From contig JBHGNT010000015.1 in assembly GCA_043228905.1 (NCBI GenBank), positions 19,654,001-19,718,000 of the forward strand: a stretch of 64,000 bases of DNA, read 5' to 3'. Of the stretch, positions 8,421 through 64,000 are shown piece after piece (position 1 is the first letter of the stretch; each line of letters starts with the position of its first letter). The notes beneath the pieces are model-generated. The model did not search any database, was not told where the DNA came from, and worked only from the letters and a program-made list of their open reading frames with translations. The translations under genes and the position numbers were made by a program. The DNA is from Azolla caroliniana. Taxonomy: Eukaryota > Plantae > Polypodiophyta.

Positions 8421-8742
8421 GCAGACAATGGATATCACACTCCAGGTATTTGTTATGTGAGAAGTCTAAGGTTTTGGGTTTTTTTGCCAGTTTCATGTTT
8501 CTCCTGAGTTTTGTGATAATGTATGTCAATTAATAACAATTGATAGAAGCGTTGATTTTATTAATGAGTATAAGATCACGACCTGATGCAGACAATGGAT
8601 ATCACACTCCAGGTATTTATTCTGTGAGAAGTCAAGGTTTCGGGTTTTTTTTGCCAGTTTCATGTTTCTCCTGAGTTTTGTGATAGTGTATGTCAATTAA
8701 TAGCAATTGATAGAAGCGTTGATTTTATTAATGAGTATAAGA
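8414..8742. repeat. Tandem duplication, ~165 bp x2
   Basis: acctgatgcagacaatggatatcacactccagg...ttaatgagtataaga at 8414 and 8581. Confidence 0.9.
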
Positions 8743-25583: not shown

Positions 25584-27365
25584 TTAGTCCACCCAAAACA
25601 TCCTTGTATCTTCCCAAGCTTTATTATTTATTCTCCGAACTTCAATCTTATTTGCTTCTGCATACATTCCAACAGCTGAATATATGTTCCGCATGCAAAC
25701 ATATGCAGCTCCACATTTTCCATCCAAGTGAACCGACTGTTCAAATGCCCATCTACCAAGATCTACATTAATCCATTTGTGACAAGCACCTAGGAAAGCC
25801 AAGCATAATGTGAGGCGTTCAGATGATGGCACCTTTCCTATCATAATCATGGCTTGGTTAAAGTGCCCAGCTCGGCTGAAAAGATCAACCATACAAGCAT
25901 AGTGTTCTGAAACTGGAGTAAGTGAGTAGGTACTACCCATTTCCTTGAAAACCAACTGCCCTTCTTTGACTAGACCTGCATGACTGCATGCAGTTAGCAG
26001 AAGAAGAAAACTGACCAGACTTGGCATTATACCTTCTGCCATCATTTTGCATAACAAGTAAAATACTCTTTTGATCTGACCTAGTTGGGCATACCCAGAT
26101 ATTAATACATTCCAAGATACAACATCTCGCATTGGAAGGACCTCGAACACTTCTTGAGCTTTTTTAAGAGCACCGCACTTTGTATACATATCAACCAAAG
26201 TATTGGCAAGCACAAGGTTTCTTTCTATTAAGCCTTGTTTGCAAACCTCAGCATGTATCTCTTGACCCATCTGAAAAGAACCCATGTTACCACAGGCTTT
26301 GAAAATGCAAATAAAAGTAACTGCATCTGGAGCAATGTCTTTATCTTGCATCTTCTGAAAGCATTTCAACGCTTCATAACCGAGTCCATGGTGATCATAT
26401 CCTGAGATCAATGCACTCCAAGACCCAACGTTCTGTGTTGGAAGCTCTTCAAATACTTTTTCAGCTTTCATAAACTCTCCACATTTAACATACATATCGA
26501 TCAATGCCGTGCCAAGCACAACATTCTTTTCAAGCAAGCCTTGCTTTCTGACCTCATCATGTATCTCTTCCCCTAATTCTAGAGATCCTACACAGCCACA
26601 AGATTTCAAAACACAAATGAAAGTGACTGAATCAGGTGAGATACCCTCGTCTCTCATCTGGCCAAAGCATTTTAGTGCTTCACCACCGAGACCATGATGG
26701 GCATATCCAGTTATCAATATACTCCATGATATAACATCCCTTACCGGAAGTTGATCAAAGATTTCTTGTGCTTTTCTCAGTAAACCACATTTTGCATACA
26801 TATCTACCAATGCATTACCAAGTATGATGTTCTTTTCTAGCAATCCTTGTTTTGTAACTTCAGCATGTATTTCTTCTCCTGCCTGAAGAGACCCCGTGCT
26901 ACCACAGGCCTTCAGAGCGCACGTAAAAGTAACAGTGTTTGGTAAGACTCTATGTTTTCTCATTTCTTTGAAGATTTCTAGAGCTTCATTGCCAAAGCCA
27001 TGTTGGGCATATCCAGATATCAGTGCATTCCAAGAAACCACACTTAAAAGAGCCTCAGGAATGTTGTGGAAAACTATATTAGCTTCTTCAAAAGCACCAC
27101 ATTTGGCATACATACTTATTAATGCAGTTCCCACATAGATGTCTTCAGGAACCAATCCTTTTAGAATCACATCGGAGTGCATAATTCTTCCTTTGCGCAA
27201 ATCTTTTGTTCTCCCATAAGATTTCAATAGGTTTAGATGAGCGGCCTGCTCTTCGCGAAACCCTAATTTGTCATATTTTCCTGACCTCCTGTCATTGTGC
27301 TTGTGTTCTTCCCAATGAAGCACAAACACACTACCACAAGAAGCATGGATCAAAGACACGGGCAT
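25584..27365 (-). CDS. PLS-class PPR protein with E1/E2 extension, no DYW
   Basis: Repeated ALVDMYAKCG/VSWNALISGYAQHG P-L-S triplets, LTACSHAGLVKEG, EHYACMVDLFSRAG, AAYVCMRNIYS. ORF track opens at TTG 27389; first ATG at 27365. Confidence 0.93.
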   Translation of the reverse strand: MPVSLIHASCGSVFVLHWEEHKHNDRRSGKYDKLGFREEQAAHLNLLKSYGRTKDLRKGRIMHSDVILKGLVPEDIYVGTALISMYAKCGAFEEANIVFHNIPEALLSVVSWNALISGYAQHGFGNEALEIFKEMRKHRVLPNTVTFTCALKACGSTGSLQAGEEIHAEVTKQGLLEKNIILGNALVDMYAKCGLLRKAQEIFDQLPVRDVISWSILITGYAHHGLGGEALKCFGQMRDEGISPDSVTFICVLKSCGCVGSLELGEEIHDEVRKQGLLEKNVVLGTALIDMYVKCGEFMKAEKVFEELPTQNVGSWSALISGYDHHGLGYEALKCFQKMQDKDIAPDAVTFICIFKACGNMGSFQMGQEIHAEVCKQGLIERNLVLANTLVDMYTKCGALKKAQEVFEVLPMRDVVSWNVLISGYAQLGQIKRVFYLLCKMMAEGIMPSLVSFLLLLTACSHAGLVKEGQLVFKEMGSTYSLTPVSEHYACMVDLFSRAGHFNQAMIMIGKVPSSERLTLCLAFLGACHKWINVDLGRWAFEQSVHLDGKCGAAYVCMRNIYSAVGMYAEANKIEVRRINNKAWEDTRMFWVD

Positions 27366-27877
27366 GCTTTCTTTTAAACTGGAGGTCAATAACAGTCATT
27401 TGAGACCATAATTCCATTGAAACTGTGGAGGAAACATAGTTCCATCGAAACCATGGAGGAGCTTTAATCCCATTGAGACTGCAAAGAGACTGTAATTGAA
27501 TGAGACCCTAAGTCCATTGAAGGTCAGATTTTTTGAAGCGGTTTTTCAAAATATAGATAGATAGACAAATACCATTTTGATTTCCATGGAAGACCGATTG
27601 CGATCTAGGTGACAAAAACAGAGGAGATCAGAGCACTTAGAGCAGAGCGGAACAGAGCAGGGTCTATCTCTCATTCATTCATTCATTCATTCATGGGGTG
27701 TTTGTTTATAAAAACTCAGTTTCTCTTAAATGAACCCTGATTTTTGGATATTTACAAAACTAGCCCTTTTCCCATTCCCTCACTTCTTCATAGACTCTTA
27801 GAAATATACCCCCATGTTAGTCAATTCAAATACGCAGACACATTAATAAAGGTCTCTTTGTCTCTCTCTCTCTCTCT

Positions 27878-28437: not shown

Positions 28438-30537
28438 ATGACTTATCTATGCATTGTAAGAATTTATATGAGTTATCTCTTGTCAAAAAGATTATGTGTT
28501 ATGATTGTCTTTCACATATGTCTCCCTTCTTTACAATTGAAGATATCTACACAGGACTTAAGAAATTGGCCTCTCGAAACGCAAGTGATCTTCAATGTAT
28601 AAAGGTTGAAATGCTCAAATGGACGGGACAGGAAGCATATGTATGGATAGACGATATGTTTAATGATGCATTGCAACATGGTATGCCGTATGATTGGACT
28701 ACAAATTAGATCAAACCTTTACATAAAGGTGGAGATATAAATAATGTAAACAATTATGGAACCATTATGGTTGGCTCATTAATGGCAAAACTATTTGGAT
28801 GTATAATGGAATCAAAGATAAGTGTATGAGCTAAAAAAAATGGTAAGAGAGCTTATGCACAAGCTGGCTTTCGAAAACACCATAGCACCATTGATCACCT
28901 TGTCACCCTTCAAGCATTAATGGAGGAAAGTCGTCTGAGAGGTAAAGGTTTATATTGTTGCTTTGTAGACTTTAAGAAAGCTTTTGATATGGTACCTTGT
29001 GAGCATCTTTGGAGGGGAATGGAAGAACTTGAGGTGCCAAGTGAATATATGCTTGCAATTTCTCGAATTTATGAGAAAGTTATATGTTGTGTGTATGAGA
29101 GATAAACTTTTAGATTTTTTCAATAGCACTATTGGTGTTAAGCAAGGATGCCCACTCTCACCAACACTATTTGGTCTATGCATTGATGAATTGGAATAAA
29201 TGGTTACCAAGTTTGCAAAGGAAGAATGTGTTGAAGAAGTTGCCATTGGGAATGTTGTGATTATACTTTTGCTATATGCAGAAGTAGTGCTTTTTGCAAA
29301 TACTTTAGGAGATGCACAAAAGCTTATGAAGACATTGGAAAAAAATTGCATGCATAATAAATTAAGTGTCAATAGCTCTAAAACAAAAATTATGCTTGTG
29401 AAGAGCCAAACAAGAGATAAACCATGCATTATGTACAACAATGAGCCACTTGAATGTGTGGAAAGCTTCAAATATCTTGGCCTTGAAGTTCCTTCAAATC
29501 ATAGATGGAATGAATGTGCTACACGCCGCTTAGAGGGGGGCAAGCGAGCATACTATGCCTTTGAGAACACGTGCAATTGGAGATATTAAATGTTGGGTCC
29601 TCAAGAAATATCTTTTCGACACTTTGGTGACACCGGTTCTTCTCTATGGGGTGGAAGTATGGGGCGGTAGCATCTCTAAATCTACGTGGAAAGAGTTTGA
29701 AAATGTCCAAAAACATTTTCTTACAAAGTTTCTACAAGTTAAGAAACAAACGCCCTACACCCTCCTCCTCCTTGAGACGGGATCGTTTCCCATTGAGTTC
29801 ATGGCCATGGAAAGGGTTGTTGAATACATGCTTAAGGTTCAAAAAAGTTTGTTACATTGACTTCCTAGAATTGCATGGGAAGCAAGCAAAAAGATCCAAA
29901 AGACGCATAAAAGAAAAATTGTGTGTTCTGGTTGGATGCAAGATATGGTTTGGTAGATGGGATGCGAGACACTTGCTTCATGATGCATCACTAGATTCCT
30001 ATATAAATGAGGCCTTTTTGCAACGCCAATGTATCATGACATGGGACAAATGTGGAGGCTCACGCTTCACACATTATACTACACATGTTGCACCTAACTA
30101 CAAAACCATATTCTTTGTGGAACGGGGAAACCGTACACATTGATACATGTTAGAGCCCATCCCGTTATCTGCCATTCGAACCATTGCTTCCATTCGACTT
30201 AGTTCACATGCATTGCGATATGAGACAGGGCGTTGGGGCACAGGTGATGAGAGTGGTCAACTATGCACACTTTGCCCTAAACAAGTTTGTGAGTCTAAGT
30301 ATCACACTTTGATACAATGTTCTACCTTTGATCATGTTCGACTATGCTTTCCACATCTCTTCGACCGAACCCAATCCTTGCACGAATTTCTCTCACAACC
30401 ACAATGTGCACTCTCAATTGCAACATTCATTGGTAAAGTTCTTGAACATCGAGAGTCACTACTCACTTTCACACGTATCACGTGAAATGTAATATTTTTG
30501 GTCCCATAGGTCATATTTGACCTCCGAAGACGATAAT

Positions 30538-33000: not shown

Positions 33001-33377
33001 CATGCTAAACCTTGTCGTAGCTATCCAAAGAGCCATTGTTCTTCTTTGGGATCCCCAACCATGGCATCCCTGCAGATTTCTGATTAAGCAGGCCTAAGGT
33101 TGGGAATCCGAAACAGAGATTATCCATTTGTGTACTTATCTCATGTCTTGAATGAAGACTTGGGTTCTTCTAAAGTCAGTTAGTCTTTCTCCACCAGATG
33201 CTTTGCTGCTTGTTGGGATCCATAACACCATTGTTTGTAAAACAGAGACATCCTATATACTAAAAGAAAGAAAGATAGCAATTCATTCAAAAGGAAAGAA
33301 AGGAAATGCTTAGGAAAGAGAGACAGGTTATGCAAATGTAAGAAAGTAAGATTATCTATGAAAGTTCACGTTGTGGC

Positions 33378-35339
33378 ATGGGTCAAGCCTCCATGGTATG
33401 CCCTCCAGAGGAGATGCTGTGTATACCACATTTGCAAGACAGAAATGCTCTTCTAGGATTGATCAAATCATGTGGAAAGCATAAGGATCTAGTTCGAGCA
33501 AGAAGTATTCACACTGGCATACTTCAAAACAATGCATTGTTTCTTCAAAAGGACATCTATGTATGCACTGCTCTGCTAACCACCTATACAAAATGCGGTG
33601 CTCTTGAAGAAGCACAAAAGCTTTTTGATAACCTCCCCATAGAGTGGAATGTTGTATCTTGGAATGTGTTGATATGTGGTTATGCTCATCATGGCCTATA
33701 TAGAGAAGCGTTGTCTTGCTTCCAGAAGATGCGAGATATCAAGGGTGTCTATCCAAATGTGGTCACCTTGTTATGTGTTTTGAGAGCTTGTAGAAGTACA
33801 CAATCTCTAGATGTTGGAGATGCGATATATGATGAGGCTCGAAAGAAGGGTTTGCTTAGAAAGGAATTATTACTTGGCACTGCATTGGTCAATATGTATG
33901 CAAAATGTGGCATGCTTTTGAAAGCACGAGAAGTGTTTGAAGAACTTCCAGTACGAGATGTTGTGGCTTGGAGTGCCCTTATTGGAGGGTATGTTCACCA
34001 TGGGCTCCCTGAAGAGGCTCTGAAATGCTTTGTTCGGATGCAAAATGAAGGTATATCTCCCAATGCATTCACTTTTGTGAGCATTTTGAAATCTTGTAGC
34101 AACATGGGATTTCTCAAGATGGGAGAAGAGATACATACTCATGTTAAGAAGCAAGGATTATTGGGGAAAAACACTATACTTGGAACCTCATTAATTGATA
34201 TGTATTCAAATTGTGGTGTTGTGGGAAAAGCTCAAGATGTGTTTGATCAACTTCTCGTGCGAGATATCGTATGTTGGAATGCATTAATAACTGGGTATGC
34301 AGAGCATGGAATTGGTCATGAAGCATTGAAACTCTTCAAATCTATGCAAGAGGAAGGAATCATCCCGAATGAGATCACATTTCTTTGTGTTTTGAAAGCT
34401 TGCAGCAACATAGGATCTCTGACGATGGGAAAACAGGTACATACTGAGATTAGCAAGCATGGATTATTGGAAAACAATTTGATGCTCCAAAATACGCTTG
34501 TTGACATGTATGCGAAGTGTGGCGCCCTAAGAGAAGCACAAAAAGTATTTGATGAAATCCCGAAATCTAATGCTGTATCCTGGACTTCACTTATTGCTGG
34601 ATATTTGAGACACGGATGCATTGATAAGGGATTGAGTTTCAATATCAAGGAGATGTATGATAAGGATATTTCTTTAGATGCAGCATCGTTGATGTGCATT
34701 GTGAAAGCTTGTGGGAGCATGGGCTTGGTTGAGTTAGGAGAAAAGATTTACACCGATGTTAGAAAGAATGTATCATTAAGAACAGACATGGCACTTGGTA
34801 ATACATTGTTGGACATGTATGCAAAATGTGGTATGCTTGGAAAAGCTCAAGAAATATTCGAAGAGCTCGAAGCACAGGATATTGTATCATGGAATGCACT
34901 CATGGCTGGGTATGCTCACATGGGTGAGGCAAAAAGGGTTTTGGAGTTATTCAGGAAAATGATGACAATAGGAAGAACCATGCCAGATGTGGTCACTTTC
35001 CTTGCTATGCTCACAGCATGTAGTCATTCAGGTCTAGTAGAATGGGGAAATTTTTTGTTGAATGAGATGACTACTTGCTATTCTCTTACTCCAACTCTAG
35101 AACATTACACTTGTGTTGTTGATCTATTTGGTCGAGCTGGACAGTTTGAAGAAGCTTTAATTTCTTTTGAAAAGGTGCCATGTTCAAATCATCTTCCACT
35201 TTGCTTGGCTCTTTTGGGTGCTTGTAGCTGTAAATCAGTAAACATGAGGCTTGCAAGATGGGCCTTTGAGCAATCACTGTGCATGGATGAAAACTGTGCT
35301 GCTGCATACATTTGCATGGGCAATGTGTATGCATTCTAG
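33378..35339 (+). CDS. PLS-class PPR protein ending in the E region, no DYW
   Basis: 653-aa ORF of PLS triplets, ACSHSGLVEWG, EHYTCVVDLFGRAG, AAAYICMGNVYAF*. Confidence 0.93.
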   Translation: MGQASMVCPPEEMLCIPHLQDRNALLGLIKSCGKHKDLVRARSIHTGILQNNALFLQKDIYVCTALLTTYTKCGALEEAQKLFDNLPIEWNVVSWNVLICGYAHHGLYREALSCFQKMRDIKGVYPNVVTLLCVLRACRSTQSLDVGDAIYDEARKKGLLRKELLLGTALVNMYAKCGMLLKAREVFEELPVRDVVAWSALIGGYVHHGLPEEALKCFVRMQNEGISPNAFTFVSILKSCSNMGFLKMGEEIHTHVKKQGLLGKNTILGTSLIDMYSNCGVVGKAQDVFDQLLVRDIVCWNALITGYAEHGIGHEALKLFKSMQEEGIIPNEITFLCVLKACSNIGSLTMGKQVHTEISKHGLLENNLMLQNTLVDMYAKCGALREAQKVFDEIPKSNAVSWTSLIAGYLRHGCIDKGLSFNIKEMYDKDISLDAASLMCIVKACGSMGLVELGEKIYTDVRKNVSLRTDMALGNTLLDMYAKCGMLGKAQEIFEELEAQDIVSWNALMAGYAHMGEAKRVLELFRKMMTIGRTMPDVVTFLAMLTACSHSGLVEWGNFLLNEMTTCYSLTPTLEHYTCVVDLFGRAGQFEEALISFEKVPCSNHLPLCLALLGACSCKSVNMRLARWAFEQSLCMDENCAAAYICMGNVYAF

Positions 35340-35349
35340 TGCTGCCCAC

Positions 35350-35611
35350 GTGATCTATTTGGTCAGCTGGATAGTTGTTGATCTATTTGGTTGAGCTGGA
35401 CAGTTTGAAGAAGCTTTAATTTCTTTCGAAAAGGTGCCATCTTCAAATCATCTTCCACTTTGCTTGTCTCTTTTGGGTGCCTGTAGCTGTAAATCAGTAA
35501 ACATGAGGCTTGCAAGATGGGCCTTTGGACAATCACTGCGCATGGATAAAAACTGTGCTGCTGCATACATTTGTATGGGCAATGTGTATGTATTCTAGTG
35601 CAGCCCACGTG
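35350..35611 (+). repeat. Tandem duplicate of the PPR 3' end (E region), frameshifted
   Basis: Near-identical copy of ~35115-35351 (gatctatttgg...cccacgtg), preceded by a short partial copy. Confidence 0.9.
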
Positions 35612-37180
35612 TCCAAATTCAAAAGCTTCATCAAACGGAAAACTTGAATATTGAGAATGGACATGGAATTATTATGATATGAAAGCTACAGCTAAGATAA
35701 GAGATTTTCAGAATATTGACGAAAAGCTAGAGGAAAGGCAGGGAAAAGATTCTACATGAATTCCCCTCTGTGACGATTACCTTTTGGCACCTTGCTTCAA
35801 AAAAAGCCACTCAAACTTAACACTTTTGAAATCACCAAGGTGGAGGTTGGTATTTTTCTGGTGAGTGACATTATTCTACAGATATGTAATTTACTTTGAT
35901 ATTTCTGGAGTCATTAACAAAGTGTCCCTCCACCCCCAGGTTTTGTTTCAAGAGTAAACAAATTCAAGAGTAATCATGTGTTGAATGCTTCTGGAACAAT
36001 TGTCATTCTGAATGCCATGCTAATGGGGATGGATTCTTTGATTAACAATAACAATGGTATGAGTCTTGAGATAATATTTGCTTTGAATTGTTTTGATGTC
36101 AAGATGAATTTCCAAGTGATAGTCCAGACATAACAGCAGCCCTAACCTCATGGATAAGCGTCTAAAGTTGTATGCAAAAAGTCACTCTCTTTGAGAAGCA
36201 ACCAAAATACTTCGAATACAGTTAATACTTGTGCCAAGGATTACAGGAAGCCGGCATACTAAGATTTATCCTTGATCAAAATGTAATTATAATGATAATT
36301 ATGCCAATGTAAAAGGGACCACATATAACACTCTTGCAGTTTAATGACTTATTTAATTCCACCTTGAACAAGTTTGTGTCAACTAAATCAGCGAAGTGGA
36401 TACTTTACTCCTACCTTTCTATTATTCTGAACAAATTTAGCACAATAACAATTCATTGACAAACCAACCACTTAGGAGGAGACCACAAAAATTAAGAATT
36501 ACAGTTATGATCCTCATGATGCATAGATTAGCATTGACAACCATGCCAGCTTGTAAAACCTTGAACTGTTGAACCACATCATAATAGATGTTAGCTGAAA
36601 GAATCATATGAGATAGATAGATTGAGATAAATATTTTATAGCAGACCACAAAGAGGCCAATATTGATCCATGTGACCTAAAAATTTGGACCATTTCTCAA
36701 TTTATGCCTGTCATCCCCAAACCATACCATTGAATAGAGGAGATTAATGACAAGAAATTGGAACTTTTCCATTACCAGCAATCCAGAATCATAATTGAAG
36801 CCATAGGCTTCCTTATCATAAAATCATATATATTTGACATGCTAGATCATAAAACCATACACCTTTATAGATTAGATCATAGAACTGTAACCATAAGCTT
36901 TTACATAATCATAAAGCCATATACCTTCAGATGTGATGATCATAAGACCACACTCCTTTCCATACTAGTTCAAATAATATACTCTACATTCTAGGCTATA
37001 AAACCTACAAACTCCAAACTAAAACCATAGAAATCACATACAAGTTCATAAAAGCATGTAGGTCACATTAAAAAAATCATGAAACCATATAATTAATCAT
37101 AGCACATAATAGATGCTAGACAAGCATATATCTAAGAATCATAACACATTATATGATTGATGAAGTGGACCTTTTCATTA

Positions 37181-37900
37181 TTATTCAGAGGCATGATCAT
37201 GATCTCCTAGGAAAATCAAACCATACTCATTACCCAACTTCAAAGCAAGTGTTAGGTCTTCTTTGGTGACTTGAGGAGATGGTTCCGAAGGATCAGTGAC
37301 TTGTTTACCGATATCAAGGAACCACTTCTCAAACCCTCCGGGCGCATATGTAAGCACCATGTGTGCATTCTTGTTTGATCGATTTGCGAATGTATGCGGA
37401 ACATGTCTTGGTAAATGAATAAATGAACCTTTGGTTGCATTGAACTCTTCATCCCCAACTTTCCATACTAGCTCCCCATCAAGCATATACCATGTCTCAT
37501 CTTCTTTGGTGTGTATATGAGGGGGAGGGCCAATGCCAGGTGGCACTATGTCTTCAAAGAGAGAGTATGATCCTCCGGTCTCATTACTAAGGGCTTTGAG
37601 AGTAACCAACACTCCTAAGACCCATAGAGTTATACCTTCTCCTGTAAGAAAACCATTTGATGATCATAGATATATGTGTATGTGTATGTAGGACAGCACA
37701 TATGCATATGCGGATATTATATTTGTATATGTATATGGTCACACCCTATAATGGAGAGATCTTATTAATCTTAAGGTAATCCATTTCAAAACATGGAAAG
37801 AAAAGAAATGTATGGAAGTACCTTCATTGACAATATTCACTGGTGGTGGAGTAAAGAGAGCATTGAAATGGGTCACAGAATTTGCAAACATATGATCCAT
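37181..37900 (-). CDS. Quercetin 2,3-dioxygenase (QueD)-like monocupin, 179 aa, 2 exons
   Basis: Exon 1 37900-37822 (MDHMF..PPVNIVNE), GT-AG intron 37821-37642, exon 2 37641-37181; 540 nt in frame. Metal motif PPPHIHTKEDE (HxHx4E) plus PHTF; ETGGSYSLFE and PGGFEKWF motifs. Confidence 0.88.
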
Positions 37901-38699
37901 TCTCTTGAATGTAATGAGAGAGAGGGAGGGGGAAATGCTAGTGAGTGAGTGTACTTCCTTCACTTGTATTGATCAATGATGAGTAATGATGACAATGATG
38001 ATGAGCTCATCAATATAGTTGTGTGTGGTTGTGGACACTTTTGACTAGTTATGTACATGCTCTTTTTTAGAGCTCCACTAGCCTAGACCATACACACCAC
38101 ACATTATTATTTTCTTCATCATCGATTCACATATCTATTCCTCGTAAAGGTACTTGAATAACAATTCTTTTTGTCAACCAACTAGGCTTTGTTCATCTGA
38201 CGTTCAAGCTTCAGGGCTTCGTGCAATTGTTTCGAGAAAAGGAAGTACACACACAAGACAAGAGGAAAAACACTGGCATTGAAATAACCGCTAGCTATGA
38301 ACGGATATGCAATTTTTTATGAATGTGGCACCACTTTCGATCAACAAGAAGACTAAGTTGAATGCTTAACACATACGCCACAAATGCTACTTTATATATA
38401 GGTGTTTACTTTAACATAAAAAAAATTAGACACGACCAACAATAAGAATGGCAAAAAATTCTTACATTTCTTGTCACAGCTAAAATGGCATAAAATACTG
38501 CTATTTTTATTGCTACTAACATGCCATAAACTTTTGCAACTTTGTACTAGTTAAGAATTCCATAAACTTTCCCATTCTTAAAGAGTGAAAGTAAACTTAA
38601 AGAGAAATAGAAAAACCGGAATGTTGGAAATCTATACATATTGTTGTCCATGGGTAACAACATTTTTTAATGGTTTTTCTAGGTTCTACATGCCATCTT

Positions 38700-41535: not shown

Positions 41536-41751
41536 GTGATACTGGACAAACCTATATAAGGCTTTGGGCCATATATATATATATAAATTCATTCCTCTCT
41601 TCCTTCAAGCATATCATAAAGCTAATCAATCCCCTTCTTCATCATAACCCTCCTCAGAAAACACCATATCACAGAGGAGGAGGTGGAAGAAGAGGAAGAA
41701 GAAGGGGTGTTAGAGAAGAAGAAAACACCCTTCACCAATCAGGGTTTGGCT

Positions 41752-43081
41752 ATGGCTATGGCTTCTTCTTCTTCTTCCTTCCTCCCAGCTTCTTCTGCAG
41801 CTGCATCTCTGCACCGTCTCCATCTCCACCTGTTCTTCATGAGGAGGAGGTGTATATCACTAGTTTGTAATCCGAACCCTAGCCCTAAATATAAACCTTT
41901 CCTTAAACCTACCTCCAAATCTAGCCCTTACCCATTTTTCTGTCTCTCTGCTGATATTGTCGATGGAAGCTTTGGGTCACAATTCCGCCGACCACGACTC
42001 TTCTCATTTGCGATGTCCAATTCGAATTCCAATCCTGTTGCCTCTGATACTGCTTCCTTGGGTTTCGGTGATGAGAATCTACCATTGAAGCTCGCAAAAA
42101 TAGTTCACCTCTTTCAGATGGTTCCAGATCCGAGGGCGAAATACGAGCAGCTCCTTCACTATGGAAAGAAGCTTGAACCGCTCCCCAAAGAATTCCAAAC
42201 CCTTGAAAACAAGGTCAATGGCTGTGTTTCTCAGGTATGAGTTTTTTTTCCCTTTATCCTGACCATGGTACCCATATCTTTGTTTGTTGTTCTTTTAGGG
42301 TAAATCGGAATCTGATTCTTTGTACACTAAATTGCAGGTATGGGTCCGTGCATTCCTTGATCAAGACCAAAAAGTCTTCTTCCAGGCTGATTCTGACTCG
42401 CTGTTGACCAAAGGTCTCGCTGCCTTGCTCGTAGAAGGCTTATCAGGATGTCCGCCGTCAGAAATACTTCGTATCTCGCCCAATTTCGTCCATTTATTGG
42501 GGCTTAAACAGAGCTTAACACCTTCTCGGAGCAACGGATTTCTCAACATGTTGAAATTGATGCAAAAAAAGGCTCTAGAATTAGCCATGGAAGGAGCTAA
42601 GCTTTCTGATGATGTGGTTGTTGCCTCACATGGCATTGGAGACCAGGGCAATGCTGATGGCATGGATGTACAGACTGTTTCTTCTACTACTAAGATCAGT
42701 GGAGACATTGAGGATTCTTCTTCATCATCATCATCTACAAGGGGGGCTTCACGCGGAGACTCTGGTTCTGGCTCAGAATATGGTTCAATTGTTTCTACAA
42801 GACAAGAGAGAATGAGACAAAAGCTTGAATCCGGCCTAGTCCCCACTTTATTAGAGATAGAGGATGTTTCTTATCAACACGCCGGTCACTCTGGTGTAGA
42901 GAAAGGGGCTTCCGAGACACATTTCAATGTAAAAGTTGTCTCAAGCAAGTTTGAAGGCAAGAGTCTTGTGAAAAGACATCGACTTATTTATGATCTTTTG
43001 CAAGAGGAGCTCCAGAGTGGTCTTCATGCACTCTCCATTGTAGCCAAAACTCCTGCTGAAGTTGAGAAAGCTGGAGTTTAA
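41752..43081 (+). CDS. SUFE1: Plastid SufE-like protein 1 (SufE + BolA domains)
   Basis: Ser-rich transit peptide; exon 1 41752-42234 (YEQLLHYGK..ENKVNGCVSQ); exon 2 42338-43081 (VWV..ADSDS..TKGLAALL..LTPSRSNGF; BolA HAGH..ETHFNVKVVS..KRHRLIY..LHALSI). Confidence 0.96.
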
Positions 43082-45636: not shown

Positions 45637-48600
45637 TTAAAGGTAGTTCTCTCTATGTAATCCTGCATATGCATTCGACATCAGCACATAACCGGCAGCT
45701 ATATTAGGATCCTGAGTAATTACTTGTTCAAAGGATTGTCCTGCCAAATGCATGTTTCCATAGGATATGCAGGAAGCAAGCAAAGATGTCTGGCTAATTA
45801 TGTCAGGTATCATTGGCATACATGCAAGTAATTCTTGTGCCTTATGAAGCTGTCCAGAACATGCAAGTAAATGTGCCATAGAGTTAAAATGCGCTGCAGT
45901 AGGTATGATCATATTATCTTCGAACATGGACATGAACTGTATACTAGCTTCATCCACTTGGCCTGTGAGGCTGAAGGCAGATAAAATACAACTGTATGTG
46001 CTGCTATCTGGCCTCAAACCTTGCTTTTCCATTGTTTGAAGACACTTTCTCACTAATGATAAGTTACCCATCTTAGAAAACCCTGAAATCATGGCACCCC
46101 AGGCTACAGTGTCCTTGAGTGGCAACTCATCAAACAGTTTGGATGCTTCCTTGAAATTCCCACATTTTCCATACATGTCGACGAGACCACTCCCAATAAC
46201 TATATCATTTTCAAGGCTGTCTCTTATGATACGATCATGTATCCATTGTCCCTGAACTACTGCTCCCACACTAGCACAAGCTTTCAGAGCACACGAGAGA
46301 ACCATTCTGTTTGGCTTCATGCTCTGCATCCCCATCCTCTCAAAGAGTAGAAGAGCAAGGAGTCCATGGTCAAGCTGAACATAACCTGCAATCATAACAC
46401 TCCATGATACCTGATTTTGATGAGGTAAGTGATTAAATGCATGGCATGCCTCCTCCAAACTTCCACATTTCAAGTACATATGCATAAGGGCAATCCCAAG
46501 ATCCATATCCACTTCTAGTCCACTTTCAAGAAGCCCATTGTGTACCAATAGACCCCTTGCAATGTCTTGAAAATTACCACATGCACTCAATGCACATGAA
46601 AATGCTATCTTGTTTGGTTCTATGACCTCATGTTGCATACGCCCAAAGAGTTCTAGAGCAGTATGTCCATGTCCATGCATCATATAACCTGCAATTAAAG
46701 AGCTATATAATACAGAATCTTGAACCATCATCTGACTGAAGATTTTGCATGCCTCATAAAAAACTCCCAGTTTAGCATACACATTCACCAGAGCATTTCC
46801 CATGATTATATCTGAAGAAAAACTATTCCTTATAATATGATCATGTACCACCATGACAGAGGATACAAATCCAGAGTTGCCACATACCTTCAATATAGAT
46901 AAAAACATTGCTCTGTCTGAAACTACACCATGCAAAAGCATTTTCTCAAAAAGCTTCAAGGCAATAATAGCTTGCCCATCTTCAGCATACCCTGTAATCA
47001 ATGCACTCCACGATACAACATCTCGATATGATAGGATCGAAAACATGCTTTCTGCCTCATCTAAGACCCCACATTTTGCATACATATCGACTAAAGTGTT
47101 TCCTATTTGTACATCTGTCAATAAGCCACTCTCAATCACTAAATGATGCAATAACATAGCCTTTTCTATAGAGCCTATATCAGCACACCCTTTCATGACA
47201 CCAAGCAATGCAACTCTGTCTGGGATAATGCATTGTTGCTGCATCCTCCCAAAGAGATGAAGTGCATGACTTGTGTTTCCATGTTGTGCATATCCGTCAA
47301 TGATGATCCCCCATGATGAAGGATCCTGATGATTTTGTAGACATTCAAACTCCTTACTAGCCTCTCCCAGATTCCCACATTTGGCATACATATCAATCAA
47401 GCTATTTGCAATGATTATGTCAGACTCAAAGCCTGCTTGTATTACTAGTCTATGCATCTGCATACCCTCATGTAAGGCTCCTATGCCACTGCAAGCATTC
47501 AGGACACATGCAAATATAACAATGCTCTGCTTAATGTTGTCTTCTTGCATTTTTTCAAATAACTTCAAAGCCAAGGCATTCTCTCCAAGATGCACATATC
47601 CTACAATCATGGAACCCCATGACACTACATTTCGCTTTTCCAAACTCTTAAAGATCACATAGGCATCCTCCATAATACCATGCTTAGCATATATATTGAT
47701 CAATGCACTTCCAACCACCACATCAGACTCCAATTGGTCTCTAACAATGAGATCATGCACAATTCTTGCTTGTGCTAAACTTCCTACACCACTGCAAGCT
47801 TTCAAGATTGAGGAAAATGCAACCTTATCTAGCTTCATCTTGTGTTGTTGCATTTGCCAAAAGAGTTCGAGTGCCCTTTCATTATTGCCATTTTCAGTGT
47901 ATCCAACCAACATTGTGCACCATAGTATAATATCTTTATTCCCCAATCCATGGAAGACCTTTTGAGCATCCTCAATGCAACCACATTTACAATACAATTC
48001 CACAAGAGAGCTTCCAATGACAATGCTGATTTCCATTCCTGTTTTCAAAACCTGATTGTGAATTTTCCTGCCTTGTAAAATGGCTCTTGCATGATTGGAT
48101 GCTTTTAGAACAGACATATATGAGACCTCATCAGGCAAGAAGCCATCTAGTTGCATTTTCTCAAAAGCTTGCATAGCTAATAACTCATAACCATGCATGG
48201 CATAGGCTGAAATAATTGCATTGTAAGACAATACATTTCGATATTGTAACTCTTCAAACAACTTCTGTGCCTCACTTAAATTCCCACATTTTGCATACAT
48301 ATCTATGAGGGCACTAGCAAGACGTAAATCCGACATAATCCCATTGATTTTAATCTCTTCATGCATGGAGATCCCCAGCTTAAGAGATTTAATACTAGCA
48401 TAAACCTTCAATATGCATACATATATAGCTCTGTTTGGTATCAAACCCTCATGTTTCATTAAAAAGAACAAATCTACAACCTTCTTGTTTTCTTGAAATT
48501 TGGAATGCATCTCTATGATCACTTGCCATGTCTGAACACTGGGGGCTTTAATGGCTGCAAAAGCCAGATTCGCTTCAAAGAAGCTTCCACATAGGATGAA

Positions 48601-49111
48601 AAACCGAACAAGATGATCTCCTAGACTTATGGCAGAGCTAATGCCACATGCTATAAGGAGAGAATGAACTCTCCTACCACTTTTTAGATCCTTTGTAGCA
48701 GCAGATTGCTGAAGAAAGGCATGCAATCTGTGTGGTGGGGGTATCCCTTGCAAATGCATGGGATCTTTCATGCAGAAAGTAGCCACTAACTGTACCAAAT
48801 CCCTATTTGATACACCTCAACTGTACAAAGTTCAAACCCGAACATAAAAACCTGCTGACCCAAGGCCCTTAATTGCACAATCGCTGAGTGATAAACCCTA
48901 ACTACCCCCAGAGATCAAACCCTAACTTTAACCTTAAATTTACAGAACCCTAGCAAAAAAAGAACAAAATTTTCCAAAACAAAAAAAAAAAAAAAAACAA
49001 TTTTCACATAAACCCTATCTGAGAAGCAATAACTGTGTAAACCCTATTCTGAGTAGAAGCTCGATTTGCAGGAAATCTCTTGACTATCAGTGTCAAACAT
49101 TTGGTCGCCAT
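45637..49111 (-). CDS. Long PLS-class PPR protein (~1080 aa) with E region, no DYW; probable 5' exon encoding a targeting peptide
   Basis: Main exon 48802-45637 of PLS triplets ending AAGYVLMSNAYA. Putative exon 1 49111-49014 (MATKCLTLIVKRFPANRAS..) joins in phase 2 across a T-rich GT-AG intron. Confidence 0.88.
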
Positions 49112-52504: not shown

Positions 52505-55500
52505 ATGATGATTCCTCTCCTTCACAAGAAATCATCAAGAGCTGTTACCAATGCAACATTTATAAAAAATGATGTAGCAAGTGATTCTCTTTCCATTTCC
52601 ATTGCAAATTGCATGATTCAACAGGGTATACCATTATGTAGAGACCATATATATAGTCTTTTACAGTCATGTTTGGGTGTCAAAGATAAAATTTCTAGCA
52701 TTAGGATGATTCACACACATATTTTGTATAGTGGCCTTGATTCGTTTACAGTTTTCAACGATCACCTCATTCGGATCTATGCATCATGTAAGTGCCTCAA
52801 AGAAGCTGAGGTAGTGTTCAAGAATGTAGAGAAACCTAGTTCTCACACATGGAATGCTATCATCTCCGCACATGCTTCATCTGGTGAACATGAGAGAGCT
52901 TTTGAATTCTATGAACAAATGCAACAAGTTGAATTTGCTGCGAATAAGTACATATTTCAATGTATTTTGAATGCATGTTTGGATGTTGAATCCTTGCAAA
53001 AGGGTTTGCTTATACATGACCACATTATTAGAGCTAGTCTGGAGTCAGATATAGCTGTCAGAAGTGGCATTGTAGCATTGTATGTGAGACGTGGAATATT
53101 AGATGAAGCAACAAAGGTTTTTGAGAGTTTGCCGAACCGTGATGTAGTGTTGTGGGGAATAATAATAACAGGGTATTATGAGAATAAACAAGATCTCATT
53201 GCTCTTAAACTTTTTCACCAAATGGAAAAGGAGGGTATAAAGGCTGATGTCATCATCTTTCTCGGCATTTTAAAAGCATGTGGTAGAGTAGAATATTTAG
53301 AGCAAGGGAGACTTATGCACTGCCGGATCATTTTATATGGACTCGAGTCAGATATTTCGCTTGGTAGGACTCTTATTGATATGTATGCCAAATGTGAGGG
53401 CTTATTAGAAGCACAAAATGTCTTTGACAAATTGGATGACAAAGGTATAGTTTCTTGGAACTCATTGATAGCATCATATCTACCACGTGGATATGCAGCC
53501 ATTGAAGTTTTTGAAAGCATGCAAGAACAGGGCATTCAGGCTGATAAGATCACATATCTATATGTCTTGAAAGCATGTGGGAATTCAAAAGCCTTTCGAC
53601 ATGGCATATGTCTACACAACCAGGTTGTCCGGGATGGGATGGAATCAGACATAGAGATTGGAAGCATACTTATTAGCATGCATGCCAAATGTGGAAGATT
53701 ACATGAAGCCAGGAATGTGTTCAACAAGATGCTGAATAGAGATATCGTTGCCTGGAGTGCAATGATTGGCAGCTATGTTGATAATGAGGAAGCCAATCTT
53801 GCAATTGAATTATTTGATCAAATGATGAATAAGGGCATAACTCCCATCAAAGTGACATTGATTTATGTTTTAAAAGCTTGCGGTGACACAAGGGACGTAG
53901 AAAAAGGCAGGTTGATACACAACCATGCTATTCAGAATGGTCTGATACTGTATAATAACATTGTAAGTGCTGTTGTAGATATGTATGCCAGATGTTCAGA
54001 ACTTTCTGAGGCAAAGAAAGTATTTGATTCTTTATCGTGTCAAGACATAGTAGCATGGGACATAATTATTTCAGCTCATGCCCAGAATGGGCATGGTGAA
54101 TTTGCTCTAGTGTTGTTCGAGAAGATGCAAAGACAGGGTTTGAATGCAGATAAGTCCATGTTTTTATGCATTTTAAAAGTATGTGGCACTTCAAGAGCCA
54201 TAATACAAGGTAGGCTGATGCATGATCAACTAATGAAGAGTAAATATCCATGTGATGTAAGCATCAGTAATGCACTTATTGGCATGTATGCAGAATGTGG
54301 TATGCTGGAAGAAGCTTGCAATGTCTTCAATGCCTTACCAGATCAAGATGCCTCATCTTGGGGTGCATTGATTGCAGGATGTGCTGAAAATGGTTATGAG
54401 ATTCTTGCACTGAAGCTGTTCTTCAAAATGCATGAACGGGATTTGATCCCAGAGAAGGCCACAGTTGTGTGTGTTCTGAGTGCTTGCAGCTGTGCAAAAT
54501 CAATAAGGCAAGCTAGATTGATGCATAATTATATGATTTTAAATCAACTTGATAAGGATGTTGTAATCGGAAACTCGTTAATTGATATGTATTGCAAGTG
54601 TGAAAGCATAAGTGAGGCACAGAGTGTTTTCAACCAAATGCTAGATCGTGATGGCAACTCATGGAATTTAATGATTTCAGGTCACAGTCAGCATGGGCAA
54701 GGCCTTGCTGCACTCAAGATTTTTGAGAAAATGCAGAATCAGGATGAACATTTGAACACAGTTGTGTTCTCATGCACCTTGAAAGCATGTAGCATAGACC
54801 GATTATCAATTCAGGGCAGAATCCTGCATCATCGGATCATAGCCAATAGAATGGAAACTGATTTGGTAGTGGCTAACACTCTTATCGACATGTACTCAAA
54901 ATGTGGGTATCTCTGTGATGCAAGAAAAGTGTTTGATAATTTGAAATGTAGAGATGAGTTCTCATGGGGTGCTATTATAATGTGCCATGCCCTTCATGAT
55001 GATAATTATGAGGTATTGAAACTTTACATGAGAATGGAAGTAGATGGTGTAAAAGCAGATGTTGTGACATCATCCTGTACATTAAAAGCATGTGGTGGCA
55101 TTGGAGCTCTTAAGCATGGAAGGCTGCTTCATGACCATGTGATTAGGTCAGGAATCGATGTGGATGTGGTGATTAGTACTGCATTGATCGATATGTATGC
55201 AAGATGTGGCAGCTCAATGGAGGCACACCGAGCATTTGAGAAAGCACATATCCGAAATGAAGTGTCATGGACAGCTTTGATCTCAGCATTTGTTCAGGAT
55301 GGGAACTTTGAGCTTGTAAGAAAGTGTCTTAAACATATGCTACAAGATGGCTTTATGCCAGATGGTCAAACATTCACCAGTATTCTTGCGGCATATAGCA
55401 ATTCAGGTCGAATGGATGCGAGCTATCAGTGCCTGGAATCTATGAATGACGTTCATGAAATTTCACCTACCATTGAACATATGAATTGCATCATTGACAC

Positions 55501-55714
55501 TCTTGCTAGAGTTGGACACTTGCATGAAGCTGAGGAGCTTCTGCAAACCATGCCAATGCCACCTGATTCCACTGGGTGGGTATCTTTGCTAACAGCTTGC
55601 CAAACTTATGGAAATATGGGGGTTGGGTGGCAATGCTTGAATGAAGTGGTTAAGATGGACCTTTGTGGCACTGGTAGTTACATGACGATAGCAAATATTT
55701 GTGCTGTTTCTTGA
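52505..55714 (+). CDS. Long PLS-class PPR protein (1069 aa) ending in the E region, no DYW
   Basis: Uninterrupted PLS triplets; EHMNCIIDTLARVG..MPMPPDSTGWVSLLTACQTYGN..SYMTIANI. Confidence 0.94.
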   Translation: MMIPLLHKKSSRAVTNATFIKNDVASDSLSISIANCMIQQGIPLCRDHIYSLLQSCLGVKDKISSIRMIHTHILYSGLDSFTVFNDHLIRIYASCKCLKEAEVVFKNVEKPSSHTWNAIISAHASSGEHERAFEFYEQMQQVEFAANKYIFQCILNACLDVESLQKGLLIHDHIIRASLESDIAVRSGIVALYVRRGILDEATKVFESLPNRDVVLWGIIITGYYENKQDLIALKLFHQMEKEGIKADVIIFLGILKACGRVEYLEQGRLMHCRIILYGLESDISLGRTLIDMYAKCEGLLEAQNVFDKLDDKGIVSWNSLIASYLPRGYAAIEVFESMQEQGIQADKITYLYVLKACGNSKAFRHGICLHNQVVRDGMESDIEIGSILISMHAKCGRLHEARNVFNKMLNRDIVAWSAMIGSYVDNEEANLAIELFDQMMNKGITPIKVTLIYVLKACGDTRDVEKGRLIHNHAIQNGLILYNNIVSAVVDMYARCSELSEAKKVFDSLSCQDIVAWDIIISAHAQNGHGEFALVLFEKMQRQGLNADKSMFLCILKVCGTSRAIIQGRLMHDQLMKSKYPCDVSISNALIGMYAECGMLEEACNVFNALPDQDASSWGALIAGCAENGYEILALKLFFKMHERDLIPEKATVVCVLSACSCAKSIRQARLMHNYMILNQLDKDVVIGNSLIDMYCKCESISEAQSVFNQMLDRDGNSWNLMISGHSQHGQGLAALKIFEKMQNQDEHLNTVVFSCTLKACSIDRLSIQGRILHHRIIANRMETDLVVANTLIDMYSKCGYLCDARKVFDNLKCRDEFSWGAIIMCHALHDDNYEVLKLYMRMEVDGVKADVVTSSCTLKACGGIGALKHGRLLHDHVIRSGIDVDVVISTALIDMYARCGSSMEAHRAFEKAHIRNEVSWTALISAFVQDGNFELVRKCLKHMLQDGFMPDGQTFTSILAAYSNSGRMDASYQCLESMNDVHEISPTIEHMNCIIDTLARVGHLHEAEELLQTMPMPPDSTGWVSLLTACQTYGNMGVGWQCLNEVVKMDLCGTGSYMTIANICAVS

Positions 55715-60300: not shown

Positions 60301-61244
60301 ATTATTGATAAAATCATTGCAGGCATTGATCCAAGACAAGAAAACAATGCCAATTGATCATCACGTAATCATTACTACTACTGAATGAAGACAAACACGC
60401 AAGCAATGCGAACAGATCAACAGATGTAATTGTTAATATCATCGATTTAAATGGCAACTACTTATTGTATATGTGGCTATTAATATCACTAATCCAGATG
60501 CATGCAGATCATCATTGCATGCAATTGATCCAAAATTGAAATACAAATATATCATCATCACACGCAAAATATTAATATCATCCATCCAGATGCAAGCAGA
60601 CCAACATCCCATGTAATAATGAATACCATTGCTCCAAATGTAACCATCCAATGTAATCAGTACAATGATTGAAACAGATCATCATCATAATATGCAAATA
60701 TCACAATTATCAATCCACATTGCATTAGATTATCATCACATGTAATCACTACTACCATGGATCAAAATGCAAAAGATCATCATCAATGCGATCATTACAA
60801 TCATTGGCCATCACAAACAATCAAATAACGCACAAGGAAAATAATGTGACTACTGCTACCAACAGATCTGAAACCAAAATGAACGAAAGGATTAAAAGGA
60901 GAGAGGAAAATGACAGGACTTACATTGAGGATGCGAGAGATACCCTGAGCCTTGAGGAGCTCTGCACGGGATGCATTATCATAGCTGCCAAGATAGAGGA
61001 ATAAAGGCAGAATCTCTGAGGAGAAAGCACTTGGTGTATGATGATAAGTGGATGACGATGGTGATGTGGATGATGCTAGCGAAATTGACGAAGACGACGA
61101 TCCATTACCGCTACCATTAAGAGGGTTTCTCTCTCCCGCCTCTTGGAGGCGGTGACCGCAGATTCCACAAACTTCTCCTTCCTCGTATTTGTGATAGTGC
61201 CCACAAATGAAACATGGGTTTTCTCTCTCACGCTTCCGAACCAT
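57384..61244 (-). CDS. IBR5: Dual-specificity protein phosphatase IBR5, 5 exons
   Basis: Exons 61244-60924, 59991-59892, 59639-59582, 59484-59378, 57694-57384. N-terminus RKRERENPCFICGHYHKYEEGEVCGICGH, YLGSYDNASRAELLK, catalytic VHCMSGQNRS, C-terminal FVFGA..MDSS. Confidence 0.96.
58341..58575. repeat. ~66-bp tandem repeat x~3.5 in IBR5 intron 4
   Basis: gagtat(g/t)gactg.atag..aagagctaag.gcaatatggatta at 58341, 58407, 58474. Confidence 0.85.
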
Positions 61245-61580
61245 GGCTTTCTCCTCCTCTTCCTCTTCCTCCTCCTCTGTTTCTTCTTCTACTCTGTTTC
61301 TGTCTGTTCCTGTAAAGGTCGATCTTCTTCTCCTCCTCCTCTGTTTCTGAGTCTCTGTATCCTCTGATTATCTTTCTTCTTCTAGGTTTCTGTTTGCTCC
61401 CCCTCCTCCTCTGTTCTGTGTTCTTCTTCTTCTTCTTCTTTGATTCTTCTGCCCTGTTTGTTCTGCGTTGTCTTCTTCCGTGTGTTTGTTTAGTTAGAGC
61501 CTCTTGTTTTTTTTACACCTAAACAAATTTCCTTCCTTCACAAGAAAGAACACAAATTACAAAGAGATTTTGATTGATTC

Positions 61581-62881: not shown

Positions 62882-64000
62882 TGTTAGAGGTTTGACAACT
62901 CTATATGCACGACGAAACACGTAATAGGCCCCAAAGCTCAACAAATAACATATATGTATAGAAATAGGAACATAGACATAAACAAATGATGTAGATATAG
63001 AGGGAAGAATCAATCTATTATAACATAAGAATGAAACATGGATGTGTATACAATGTAGAGAGGAAGAGCTCTTGCACATAGGACTATGCTCCACTCAAAA
63101 CTCTATCTAGCCTTCTTTTATAGTTGTGAAGGACTTTTGCATGAGCACCACTTGTCACACATGTATTTTGCATGCATACTACTTTTGTATGCATATACTA
63201 CATGCATTTATCATTAAGTAATATTGAATGTTAAATATAATAAACCAATAATGGCGTGATGGTTAAGCTTGATAACTATGAACACATATGTCATGTGTTC
63301 AAGTCCTTCCAAGTACAAGCTTGATTTCCAACACTCTCCCTTAAGCTCGAGATGATGTATCTCCTATCTTCATTTTACGCATAAACTTCTTTGACTTTTA
63401 AAAACTTTGTAAATATATATGCAACTTGATCACCTTTGACAAATAACGATGGATCTGTATCTGACTCTTTGAATTCTTGCTTCATCAAGCATGGAACCAA
63501 CATGTGATACCAAGCTCTCGGTGAGCTTTAAACCATATAAAGCCTTTTTCAACTTACACACATAATCAGGATAATCTGGGTGCACATAACCTTGTGGTTG
63601 CTCCACATATATTTCTTCTTCTAAATCACCATTAAGGAATGTATTCTTTACATCTAGGTGATACAATTTCCATTTCTTTGCGGCTGCAATTGCTAACAAA
63701 GTTCTAGTAGTTGTCATTTTTGCTACTGGACTAAAGGTTTCCTCATAGTCAAACCCATACTTCTGAGCATAACCTTTCACAACTAACCTTGCTTTGTATC
63801 TCGCGATAGTACCATTTGAATTGTGCTTAATTTTATAAAGTACCCACTTACATCCACTTGTCTTGATTTCTTTATTTCTTGGCACCAATGTCCAAGTACC
63901 ATTTTCACGTAAGGCTAGTATCTCCTCATCCATTGCTTCCCGCCATTCTTGTTTGCTTTCTGCTTCTTCAATGTTAGATGGCTCTTCTACTTTAATCACT
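62882..64000 (-). mobile_element. Ty1/Copia 3' end: RT fragment, PPT and 452-bp 3' LTR (62882-63333)
   Basis: RYKARLVVKGYAQKYGFDYEETFSPV, LDVKNTFLNG, KLKKALYGLK. Minus-strand purine tract aagggagag directly before tgttgg; LTR bounded TGTT...AACA with internal tataaaa. Confidence 0.9.

What the first reader, a model, noticed from the sequence alone, without database searches (positions are those of the whole stretch)
37181..37900. Bacterial-style quercetinase (QueD)-like monocupin with a spliceosomal intron: horizontal-transfer candidate
Seen: an intact 179-aa two-exon gene (phase-1, 180-nt GT-AG intron) among plant genes, with HxHx4E plus a distal His. Known: the layout (IV.EGEG..LWVLG..VTLK...ETGG.YSLFE...PPPH.H..EDE...PHTF...PGGFEKWF..G....P.......L...YGL.F) resembles bacterial monocupin quercetinase-like proteins such as Streptomyces QueD, not plant germins, vicilins, ABP1 or pirins. 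Inference: a domesticated bacterial gene that could give the plant a flavonol-cleaving, CO-releasing enzyme. The intron and plant neighbours argue against contamination. No signal peptide is evident.
Basis: partly seen in the sequence, partly recalled or inferred. Interest (0 to 1): 0.82.

Follow-up and report, generated by a model that had tools for sequence, protein, structure and literature searches.

The report
Ancient bacterial cupin in non-flowering plants

Summary
In detail: a 179-aa two-exon gene with a 180-nt phase-1 GT-AG intron, spliced at exactly that junction in 7 of 8 runs laid. Its closest solved structures are quercetinases (QueD, YxaG; Z about 19, 19-24% identity), and the 3His/1Glu metal site is intact. 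It is not a recent or lineage-specific capture. Homologs occur in ferns, a lycophyte, mosses, liverworts, a hornwort and gymnosperms, a sister family occurs in Zygnematophyceae algae, and Sphagnum-type contigs share the intron position. No named hit was an angiosperm or chlorophyte. Plant rows group with a small set of exported bacterial monocupins (100/96), so an ancient bacterial origin is likely; donor and number of transfers are unresolved. The flavonol-cleaving role is doubtful: liverworts and hornworts, reported to lack flavonols, keep intact copies, and two positions differ from QueD/YxaG across the family. Conifer copies carry Arg for the second His. Verdict: an uncharacterised member of a known kind of ancient transfer; possibly already in transfer catalogues I could not read.

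The parts
37822..37900 (-). Exon 1, 26 codons + 1 nt; conserved land-plant N-terminus, no signal peptide evident
   Evidence: homolog N-termini
37642..37821 (-). 180-nt phase-1 GT-AG intron; same position and phase in Sphagnum-type contigs
37181..37641 (-). Exon 2: cupin barrel plus C-terminal helices of QueD/YxaG type, stop codon
37496..37519 (-). Metal motif 1 codons: H68, H70, E75 (align to QueD H69, H71, E76)
37394..37396 (-). H109, fourth predicted metal ligand (aligns to QueD H115)
37553..37555 (-). E56, near-invariant in the family; Thr in QueD and Ser in YxaG C-domain at the aligned position
37352..37354 (-). L123; Gly in QueD and YxaG C-domain, Gly in 0 of 114 family rows
37901..38007 (-). 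Likely 5' UTR, covered by the spliced contig of run X1
36879..37180 (-). Likely 3' UTR, covered by contigs of runs X1, X3, X5, X10

Best explanation
[quoted passage not shown] Shown: gene structure, splicing, host-like codon GC, ligand residues, spread across non-flowering land plants, shared intron, grouping with bacterial monocupins. Predicted: QueD/YxaG fold. Inferred: a cytosolic, probably dimeric protein binds a divalent metal (Mn, Fe, Co, Ni or Cu); a small enolic or phenolic aromatic compound binds the metal, E75 takes its proton, and O2 is added to cleave the ring, serving detoxification or turnover of phenolics under stress. Its bacterial relatives mostly look exported (twin-Arg or lipoprotein N-termini); the plant copy has no such signal. 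Conifer copies likely lost catalysis (His to Arg), and the gene was likely lost in flowering plants. Odds of the parts: ancient non-plastid bacterial origin about 0.8; O2-dependent QueD-like chemistry about 0.55.
For: Fold: the top four of 48,161 chains are YxaG (Z 19.3, rmsd 2.9, 149 aligned), QueD (19.2, 2.6, 149), CucA (17.3) and fungal quercetinase (16.5); other cupins are at 15.5 or less, ABP1 13.2, vicilin 12.6, pirin 12.3; Foldseek agrees; model pLDDT 92. Ligands align to the QueD residues shown to be needed for activity (PMC4416304 passages). Spread: named homologs in Ceratopteris, Adiantum, Diphasiastrum, Sphagnum, Ceratodon, Calypogeia, Riccia, Nothoceros, Araucaria, Cryptomeria, Taxus, Picea and a Gb_ gene read as Ginkgo; Closterium and a Mesen1 gene read as Mesotaenium in a sister family. 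Same intron position and phase in 4 of 4 Sphagnum-type contigs tested (L007 exon 2 is 100% identical to a Sphagnum magellanicum protein). Tree: plant A (32 rows), B (9) and 14 bacterial-type rows form one side of a branch at 100/96 against 40 other domains; 99/99 in a second set. Bacterial contexts seen: an Acetobacteraceae genome (L001) and a contig whose two tested neighbours match cyanobacterial plasmids (L004); nearest Atlas clusters are 75-100% Bacteria. dN/dS 0.18 against a close relative, on 13 differences. Several bacterial relatives sit beside flavin oxidoreductases, SDR, pirin and DoxX genes.
Against: No activity was tested and a shared fold shows no function; identity to quercetinases is only 19-24%. 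The root inside the plant-plus-bacteria clade is open, and 17 of 19 bacterial rows group together weakly (82/48), so the tree alone does not prove nesting or name a donor. One origin of plant A and B is neither recovered nor rejected (p-AU 0.30); a grouping with the cyanobacteria-context rows is not rejected (p-AU 0.115). Most rows are unnamed and I labelled them by inspection; QueD and YxaG were not in the trees. The lack of angiosperm and chlorophyte hits rests on named hits only (about a quarter of records carry names) in word-limited searches. The bacterial neighbourhoods differ from locus to locus and give no conserved pathway. That E56 and L123 line the pocket rests on alignment and recall, not on a docked model.
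Confidence: 0.5

Rival explanations
1. It is a true flavonol 2,4-dioxygenase that degrades the plant's own quercetin and kaempferol and releases CO.
For: All four nearest folds are described as quercetinases (CucA per a passage of PMC4335983). Ligands intact. Mosses and ferns have flavonol pathways (passages of PMC9670752 and PMC9477723).
Against: PMC9670752 states that liverworts make no flavonols and hornworts lack flavonoids, yet the named Calypogeia, Riccia and Nothoceros rows all keep His-His-Glu-His. The Gly shared by QueD and the YxaG C-domain is Gly in 0 of 114 family rows, and E56 has no counterpart. No named hit in flavonol-rich angiosperms.
Confidence: 0.2
2. It is a metal-dependent cupin with non-oxygenase chemistry (isomerase, lyase, hydrolase) or a small-molecule binding protein, with E56 as a second catalytic or binding residue.
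For: E56 is Glu in 42 of 43 plant A, 9 of 9 B, 20 of 21 near-bacterial and 34 of 41 other rows. The same 3His/1Glu site serves many cupin reactions (established knowledge; PMC3765361 abstract listing). Conifer copies are kept although the second His is Arg (8 of 43 A rows), which fits a role that does not need the full metal site.
Against: Non-quercetinase cupins align over only about 80-118 residues and score Z 15.5 or less; only the quercetinase group matches the C-terminal helices.
Confidence: 0.3
3. The gene came from the cyanobacterial plastid ancestor (endosymbiotic transfer) and was lost in other algae.
For: A near relative at 52% identity lies on a contig with cyanobacterial-type neighbours; the forced grouping is not rejected (p-AU 0.115); sister family B has long N-terminal extensions that could be transit peptides.
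Against: In the free tree the cyanobacteria-context rows sit inside a bacterial subgroup on starred branches (98/87, 99/89), and forcing them to plants costs 23.5 log-likelihood units. No named chlorophyte, red algal or glaucophyte hit.
Confidence: 0.1
4. It is a recent, fern-specific capture or a bacterial contaminant.
For: Only the bacterial look of the protein.
Against: Spliced in 7 studies; host-like GC3; plant neighbours; closest named homologs are plants at 54-73%; intron shared with Sphagnum-type contigs.
Confidence: 0.01

Closest known systems
Streptomyces sp. FLA quercetinase QueD (PDB 5FLH/5FLJ)
   Same: Monocupin of similar size; predicted fold matches over 149 residues (Z 19.2); 3His/1Glu ligands and the PxG-FE helix motif align.
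   Different: 23-24% identity; Thr where the fern protein has E56, Gly where it has L123; no activity shown here; separate, uncharacterised clade.
Bacillus subtilis YxaG/QueD (PDB 1Y3T, 2H0V)
   Same: Best sequence hit in the PDB (E 2e-14) and top fold (Z 19.3).
   Different: Bicupin; 19-21% structural identity; Ser and Gly at the two positions above.
Synechocystis CucA (PDB 2XL7)
   Same: Same fold group (Z 17.3); periplasmic, like the exported bacterial relatives appear to be.
   Different: 18-20% identity; not found by sequence search.
Plant pirins (for example Arabidopsis PRN1)
   Same: Cupins reported to have quercetinase activity in plants (PMC4867686 passages).
   Different: Bicupins of another family; no Pirin Pfam hit; pirin YhhW only Z 12.3.
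Ancient microbe-to-plant transfers kept in seed-free plants (GH88, fungal fruit-body lectin, aerolysin-like)
   Same: Same pattern of early acquisition and later loss (passages of PMC12890914, PMC12448838, PMC9477723).
   Different: This family persists in gymnosperms, with a changed metal ligand in conifers, and has an algal sister family.

Membership tests
QueD-type quercetinase (flavonol 2,4-dioxygenase) | Cupin barrel with the two conserved motifs | tested here: met
   Pfam Cupin_2 above cut-off; model
QueD-type quercetinase (flavonol 2,4-dioxygenase) | 3His/1Glu metal ligands | tested here: met
   H68, H70, E75, H109 align to QueD H69, H71, E76, H115; metal binding itself not measured
QueD-type quercetinase (flavonol 2,4-dioxygenase) | Full-length fold including C-terminal helices | tested here: met
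   Z 19.2, rmsd 2.6, 149 of 152 residues to 5FLH; exon 2 only was folded
QueD-type quercetinase (flavonol 2,4-dioxygenase) | Flavonol-binding pocket residues | tested here: inconclusive
   Aligned positions differ (E56, L123, Y125); that they line the pocket is recalled, and no held paper listed the pocket
QueD-type quercetinase (flavonol 2,4-dioxygenase) | O2-dependent cleavage of quercetin with CO release | not testable with these tools
   needs an enzyme assay
QueD-type quercetinase (flavonol 2,4-dioxygenase) | Homodimer of monocupin subunits | not tested
   no complex prediction was run; a pass would be expected by likeness to solved structures
Pirin | Bicupin with Pirin and Pirin_C domains | tested here: not met
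   179-aa monocupin, no Pirin Pfam match
Germin / seed-storage Cupin_1 proteins | Cupin_1 domain above cut-off and a secretion signal | tested here: not met
   Cupin_1 21.6 bits, under the cut-off of 22; no hydrophobic N-terminus; germin ranks 47-50 in Foldseek
Ancient bacteria-to-streptophyte transfer | Integrated, spliced host nuclear gene | tested here: met
Ancient bacteria-to-streptophyte transfer | Plant clade grouped with bacteria to the exclusion of other eukaryotes | tested here: met
   100/96 and 99/99; most non-plant rows are unnamed and judged bacterial by context or sequence
Ancient bacteria-to-streptophyte transfer | Donor identified, plastid origin excluded | tested here: inconclusive
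   p-AU 0.115; basal forks open
Ancient bacteria-to-streptophyte transfer | Absence from chlorophytes and other eukaryotes | tested here: inconclusive
   none among named hits; searches are word-limited and most hits are unnamed

The most novel reading that the evidence does not exclude
An exported bacterial quercetinase-like enzyme was captured by the algal ancestors of land plants and became a dedicated CO-releasing dioxygenase for flavonols or related phenolics in bryophytes, lycophytes, ferns and Ginkgo; conifers turned it into a non-catalytic binder through a His-to-Arg change and flowering plants discarded it, giving a datable gain-decay-loss series for a branch of plant phenolic catabolism that angiosperm models cannot show.
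Probability: 0.2. Interest if true: 0.8.

Novelty: new member of a known kind. Interest (0 to 1): 0.47.

Why it matters
Ancient bacterial gains are a known kind, but few have a clear enzymatic hypothesis and a visible decay. This family is kept across non-flowering land plants, appears only as 'hypothetical' or 'Cupin_2' in the records seen, and can be tested cheaply in Ceratopteris, a moss or a liverwort. If it cleaves phenolics it would add a catabolic step, and perhaps a CO source, missing from flowering-plant models. If it does not, it would still define the function of a large bacterial group now auto-named 'quercetin dioxygenase-like'.

Tried and rejected
No whole genome is held for the window, so copy number outside it is unknown. 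NCBIfam gave only sub-threshold matches. The named-genome scan found 3 loci among 48 pattern matches; its patterns were plant-biased, so this is no count of bacterial range. 9 of 301 genomes drawn from the phylum of G003 (record title: Planctomycetaceae) matched the near-bacterial profile at E <= 1e-30, best 2e-47, and at most 10 candidates a genome were scored: no donor found. Plasmid search: 173 records, all under 60% identity, the 25 listed at 35-41%. No earlier scan finding matched. Ten paper searches returned no paper on this plant family; this does not show it is unpublished. Ma et al. 2022 and Eom et al. 2023 are not held. For PMC12513842 one supplementary file was held and had no 'cupin', 'quercetin' or PF07883; its transfer tables (Supplementary Data 8-11, 1,809 families) were not seen and may list this family. 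Zygnema supplements gave no relevant row among those shown. The Atlas search with a family-B protein scored under 0.9, a lead only. AU tests settled neither one origin nor plastid origin. dS against Sphagnum was saturated. Rejected: contamination, recent capture, germin, pirin.

Full report
Observation. The minus strand carries exon 1 at 37900-37822 (79 nt), a 180-nt GT-AG intron at 37821-37642 and exon 2 at 37641-37181. Spliced, they give 179 aa with one terminal stop; HxHx4E begins at residue 68 and the distal His is H109. Assembled contigs skip exactly this intron in 4 of 4 runs and 3 of 4 runs; the seven runs belong to seven studies, one is on record as RNA, and the eighth run's contig stops 6 nt before the joint. 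The gene is single in the window. It lies between PPR genes and a SufE-BolA gene (Pfam on two PPR genes and SufE-BolA). Its GC3 (0.355) matches five neighbours (0.34-0.37). Against a close relative on contig L011, dN/dS is 0.18 on 13 differences. The source is not named; 70-73% identity to Ceratopteris and Adiantum proteins against 66% or less for other named plants suggests a fern.

What it resembles. Pfam gives Cupin_2. The best PDB sequence hits are Bacillus YxaG, fungal quercetinase and Streptomyces QueD. An AlphaFold model of exon 2 (pLDDT 92) matches YxaG (Z 19.3, rmsd 2.9, 149 aligned), QueD (19.2, 2.6, 149), CucA (17.3) and the fungal enzyme (16.5) along its whole length, at 19-24% identity; other cupins reach 15.5 or less, ABP1 13.2, vicilin 12.6 and pirin 12.3 (Foldseek agrees). 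H68, H70, E75 and H109 align with QueD H69, H71, E76 and H115, whose replacement cuts or abolishes activity (PMC4416304, passages).

Where it occurs. The first search gave 46 hits among 55 candidates; two profile searches gave 60 and 119 hits, each among the 7,997 candidates scored. Named homologs: Ceratopteris, Adiantum, Diphasiastrum, Sphagnum, Ceratodon, Calypogeia, Riccia, Nothoceros, Araucaria, Cryptomeria, Taxus, Picea, and a Gb_ gene that I read from memory as Ginkgo. An Anthoceros gene is annotated as Cupin_2 with the Picea homolog as best hit and appears once in the held, cut supplements of PMC7027989. A sister family B, mostly with long N-terminal extensions, holds Closterium and a Mesen1 gene that I read as Mesotaenium; its other rows are unnamed. 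Four of four Sphagnum-type contigs have a phase-1 intron at the same codon (L007 exon 2 is identical to a Sphagnum magellanicum protein). The intron therefore likely predates the split of mosses and vascular plants.

Origin. The whole-library search found 287 representatives at E <= 1e-30; most of the 150 listed are two-domain proteins of bacterial look. I built trees from 95 of 376 extracted domains plus one algal row among them (near-duplicates and most bicupin domains left out) and from 63 rows. I assigned groups by inspection beforehand; QueD and YxaG were not available as rows; the roots are arbitrary bacterial rows. Plant A, family B and a small set of bacterial-type monocupins form one side of a branch at 100/96 and 99/99. 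That set includes an Acetobacteraceae genome, a contig whose two tested neighbours match cyanobacterial plasmids and intron-less, gene-dense contigs; 13 of 21 such rows have twin Arg in the first 20 residues and 2 a lipobox. The forks inside the clade are open. One origin for A and B is not recovered and not rejected (p-AU 0.30); grouping plants with the cyanobacteria-context rows costs 23.5 log units but is not rejected (p-AU 0.115). An old bacterial origin is the simplest reading (about 0.8 for a non-plastid donor); donor and number of events are unknown. The closest non-plant-looking rows, P0019/P0271 (60% identity), are unidentified.

Function. For quercetinase chemistry: fold and ligands. 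Against flavonols as the conserved substrate: PMC9670752 (passages) says liverworts make no flavonols and hornworts lack flavonoids, yet their named copies keep all four ligands. The Gly that QueD and the YxaG C-domain share after the second motif aligns to L123 and is Gly in 0 of 114 rows; E56, which is Thr in QueD and Ser in YxaG, is Glu in 42 of 43 plant A, 9 of 9 B, 20 of 21 near-bacterial and 34 of 41 other rows. That these positions line the substrate pocket is recalled from the fungal enzyme and was not confirmed. Some bacterial relatives lie beside flavin oxidoreductases, an isochorismatase-family gene, or a MarR-SDR-pirin-DoxX cluster, a weak hint of detoxification. I therefore favour a cytosolic, metal- and O2-dependent ring-cleaving enzyme for a small phenolic or enolic compound (about 0.55 for the chemistry), with endogenous flavonol breakdown (0.2) and non-oxygenase roles (0.3) as rivals. 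All four ligands are intact in 34 of 43 plant A rows; 8 of the 9 exceptions have Arg for the second His and are the named conifers (Araucaria, Cryptomeria, Taxus, Picea) and four unnamed conifer-like rows, while the Ginkgo-labelled row is intact. The matching QueD change to Ala leaves 0.9 U/mg and 0.18 Ni per monomer, so conifer copies are likely non-catalytic or altered.

What is known. Early transfers later lost in seed or flowering plants are a described kind (passages of PMC12890914, PMC12448838, PMC9477723). PMC12513842 counts 1,809 transferred families, 115 events in the streptophyte and 90 in the land-plant ancestor (passages); its tables were not held and Ma et al. 2022 was not held, so this family may already be catalogued. 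Ten searches found no paper on it. Other papers seen as passages only: PMC4867686, PMC10488974, PMC7027989, PMC3765361, PMC4335983, PMC4462102; PMC9915684 by supplement search only.

Verdict. A real gene, correctly modelled, of likely ancient bacterial origin, uncharacterised, and not a recent capture. It works like a quercetinase by fold and metal site; membership is unproven. New member of a known kind; interest 0.47.

Noticed in passing
proteins P0009, P0012, P0018, P0021, P0159, P0165, P0197, P0281, P0305, P0306, P0308, P0311: Many liverwort, hornwort and moss-type copies end in KDEL or similar xxEL tetrapeptides although the complete ones show no obvious signal peptide; unexplained.
   Followed up: no
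proteins P0150, P0162, P0164, P0171, P0188, P0204, P0232, P0245: Sister family B (Closterium, Mesen1, unnamed) keeps all four ligands, has Tyr after E56 and Cys at position 125, and mostly long N-terminal extensions that may target organelles.
   Followed up: partly
proteins P0019, P0269, P0271: Unnamed cluster at about 60% identity to the window protein, one member on a 52-kb contig; weakly next to plant A in the trees. Could be the nearest bacterial lineage or an alga.
   Followed up: partly
window 37173-37346 and 37858-37892: Runs X3 and X16 hold a second version at 90-95% identity: an allele, homoeolog or paralog in related plants.
   Followed up: no
window 25587-27395, 33342-35336, 45640-48816, 52505-55711: Four long PPR genes; two confirmed by Pfam, two by eye.
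   Followed up: partly
window 35089-35668: The 3' end of the PPR gene at 33342 appears duplicated in tandem: two similar frames.
   Followed up: no
window 41626-43078: SufE-BolA gene with a 103-nt GT-AG intron skipped in runs X5 and X10.
   Followed up: yes
window 6500-8500, 9012-9674, 28800-30500, 63433-63999: Decayed LINE-like and copia-like retroelement fragments, judged by eye from the frames.
   Followed up: no
window 60804-61367: Frame that looks like the start of a plant dual-specificity phosphatase (by eye); no Pfam hit on this piece.
   Followed up: no
L002 1411-4435: Planctomycetaceae cluster MarR, SDR, pirin, DoxX, then the related cupin: two quercetinase-like proteins in one run of genes.
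   Followed up: partly
L010 1529-2700: A near-clade cupin directly follows a more distant cupin of the same group on one contig.
   Followed up: no
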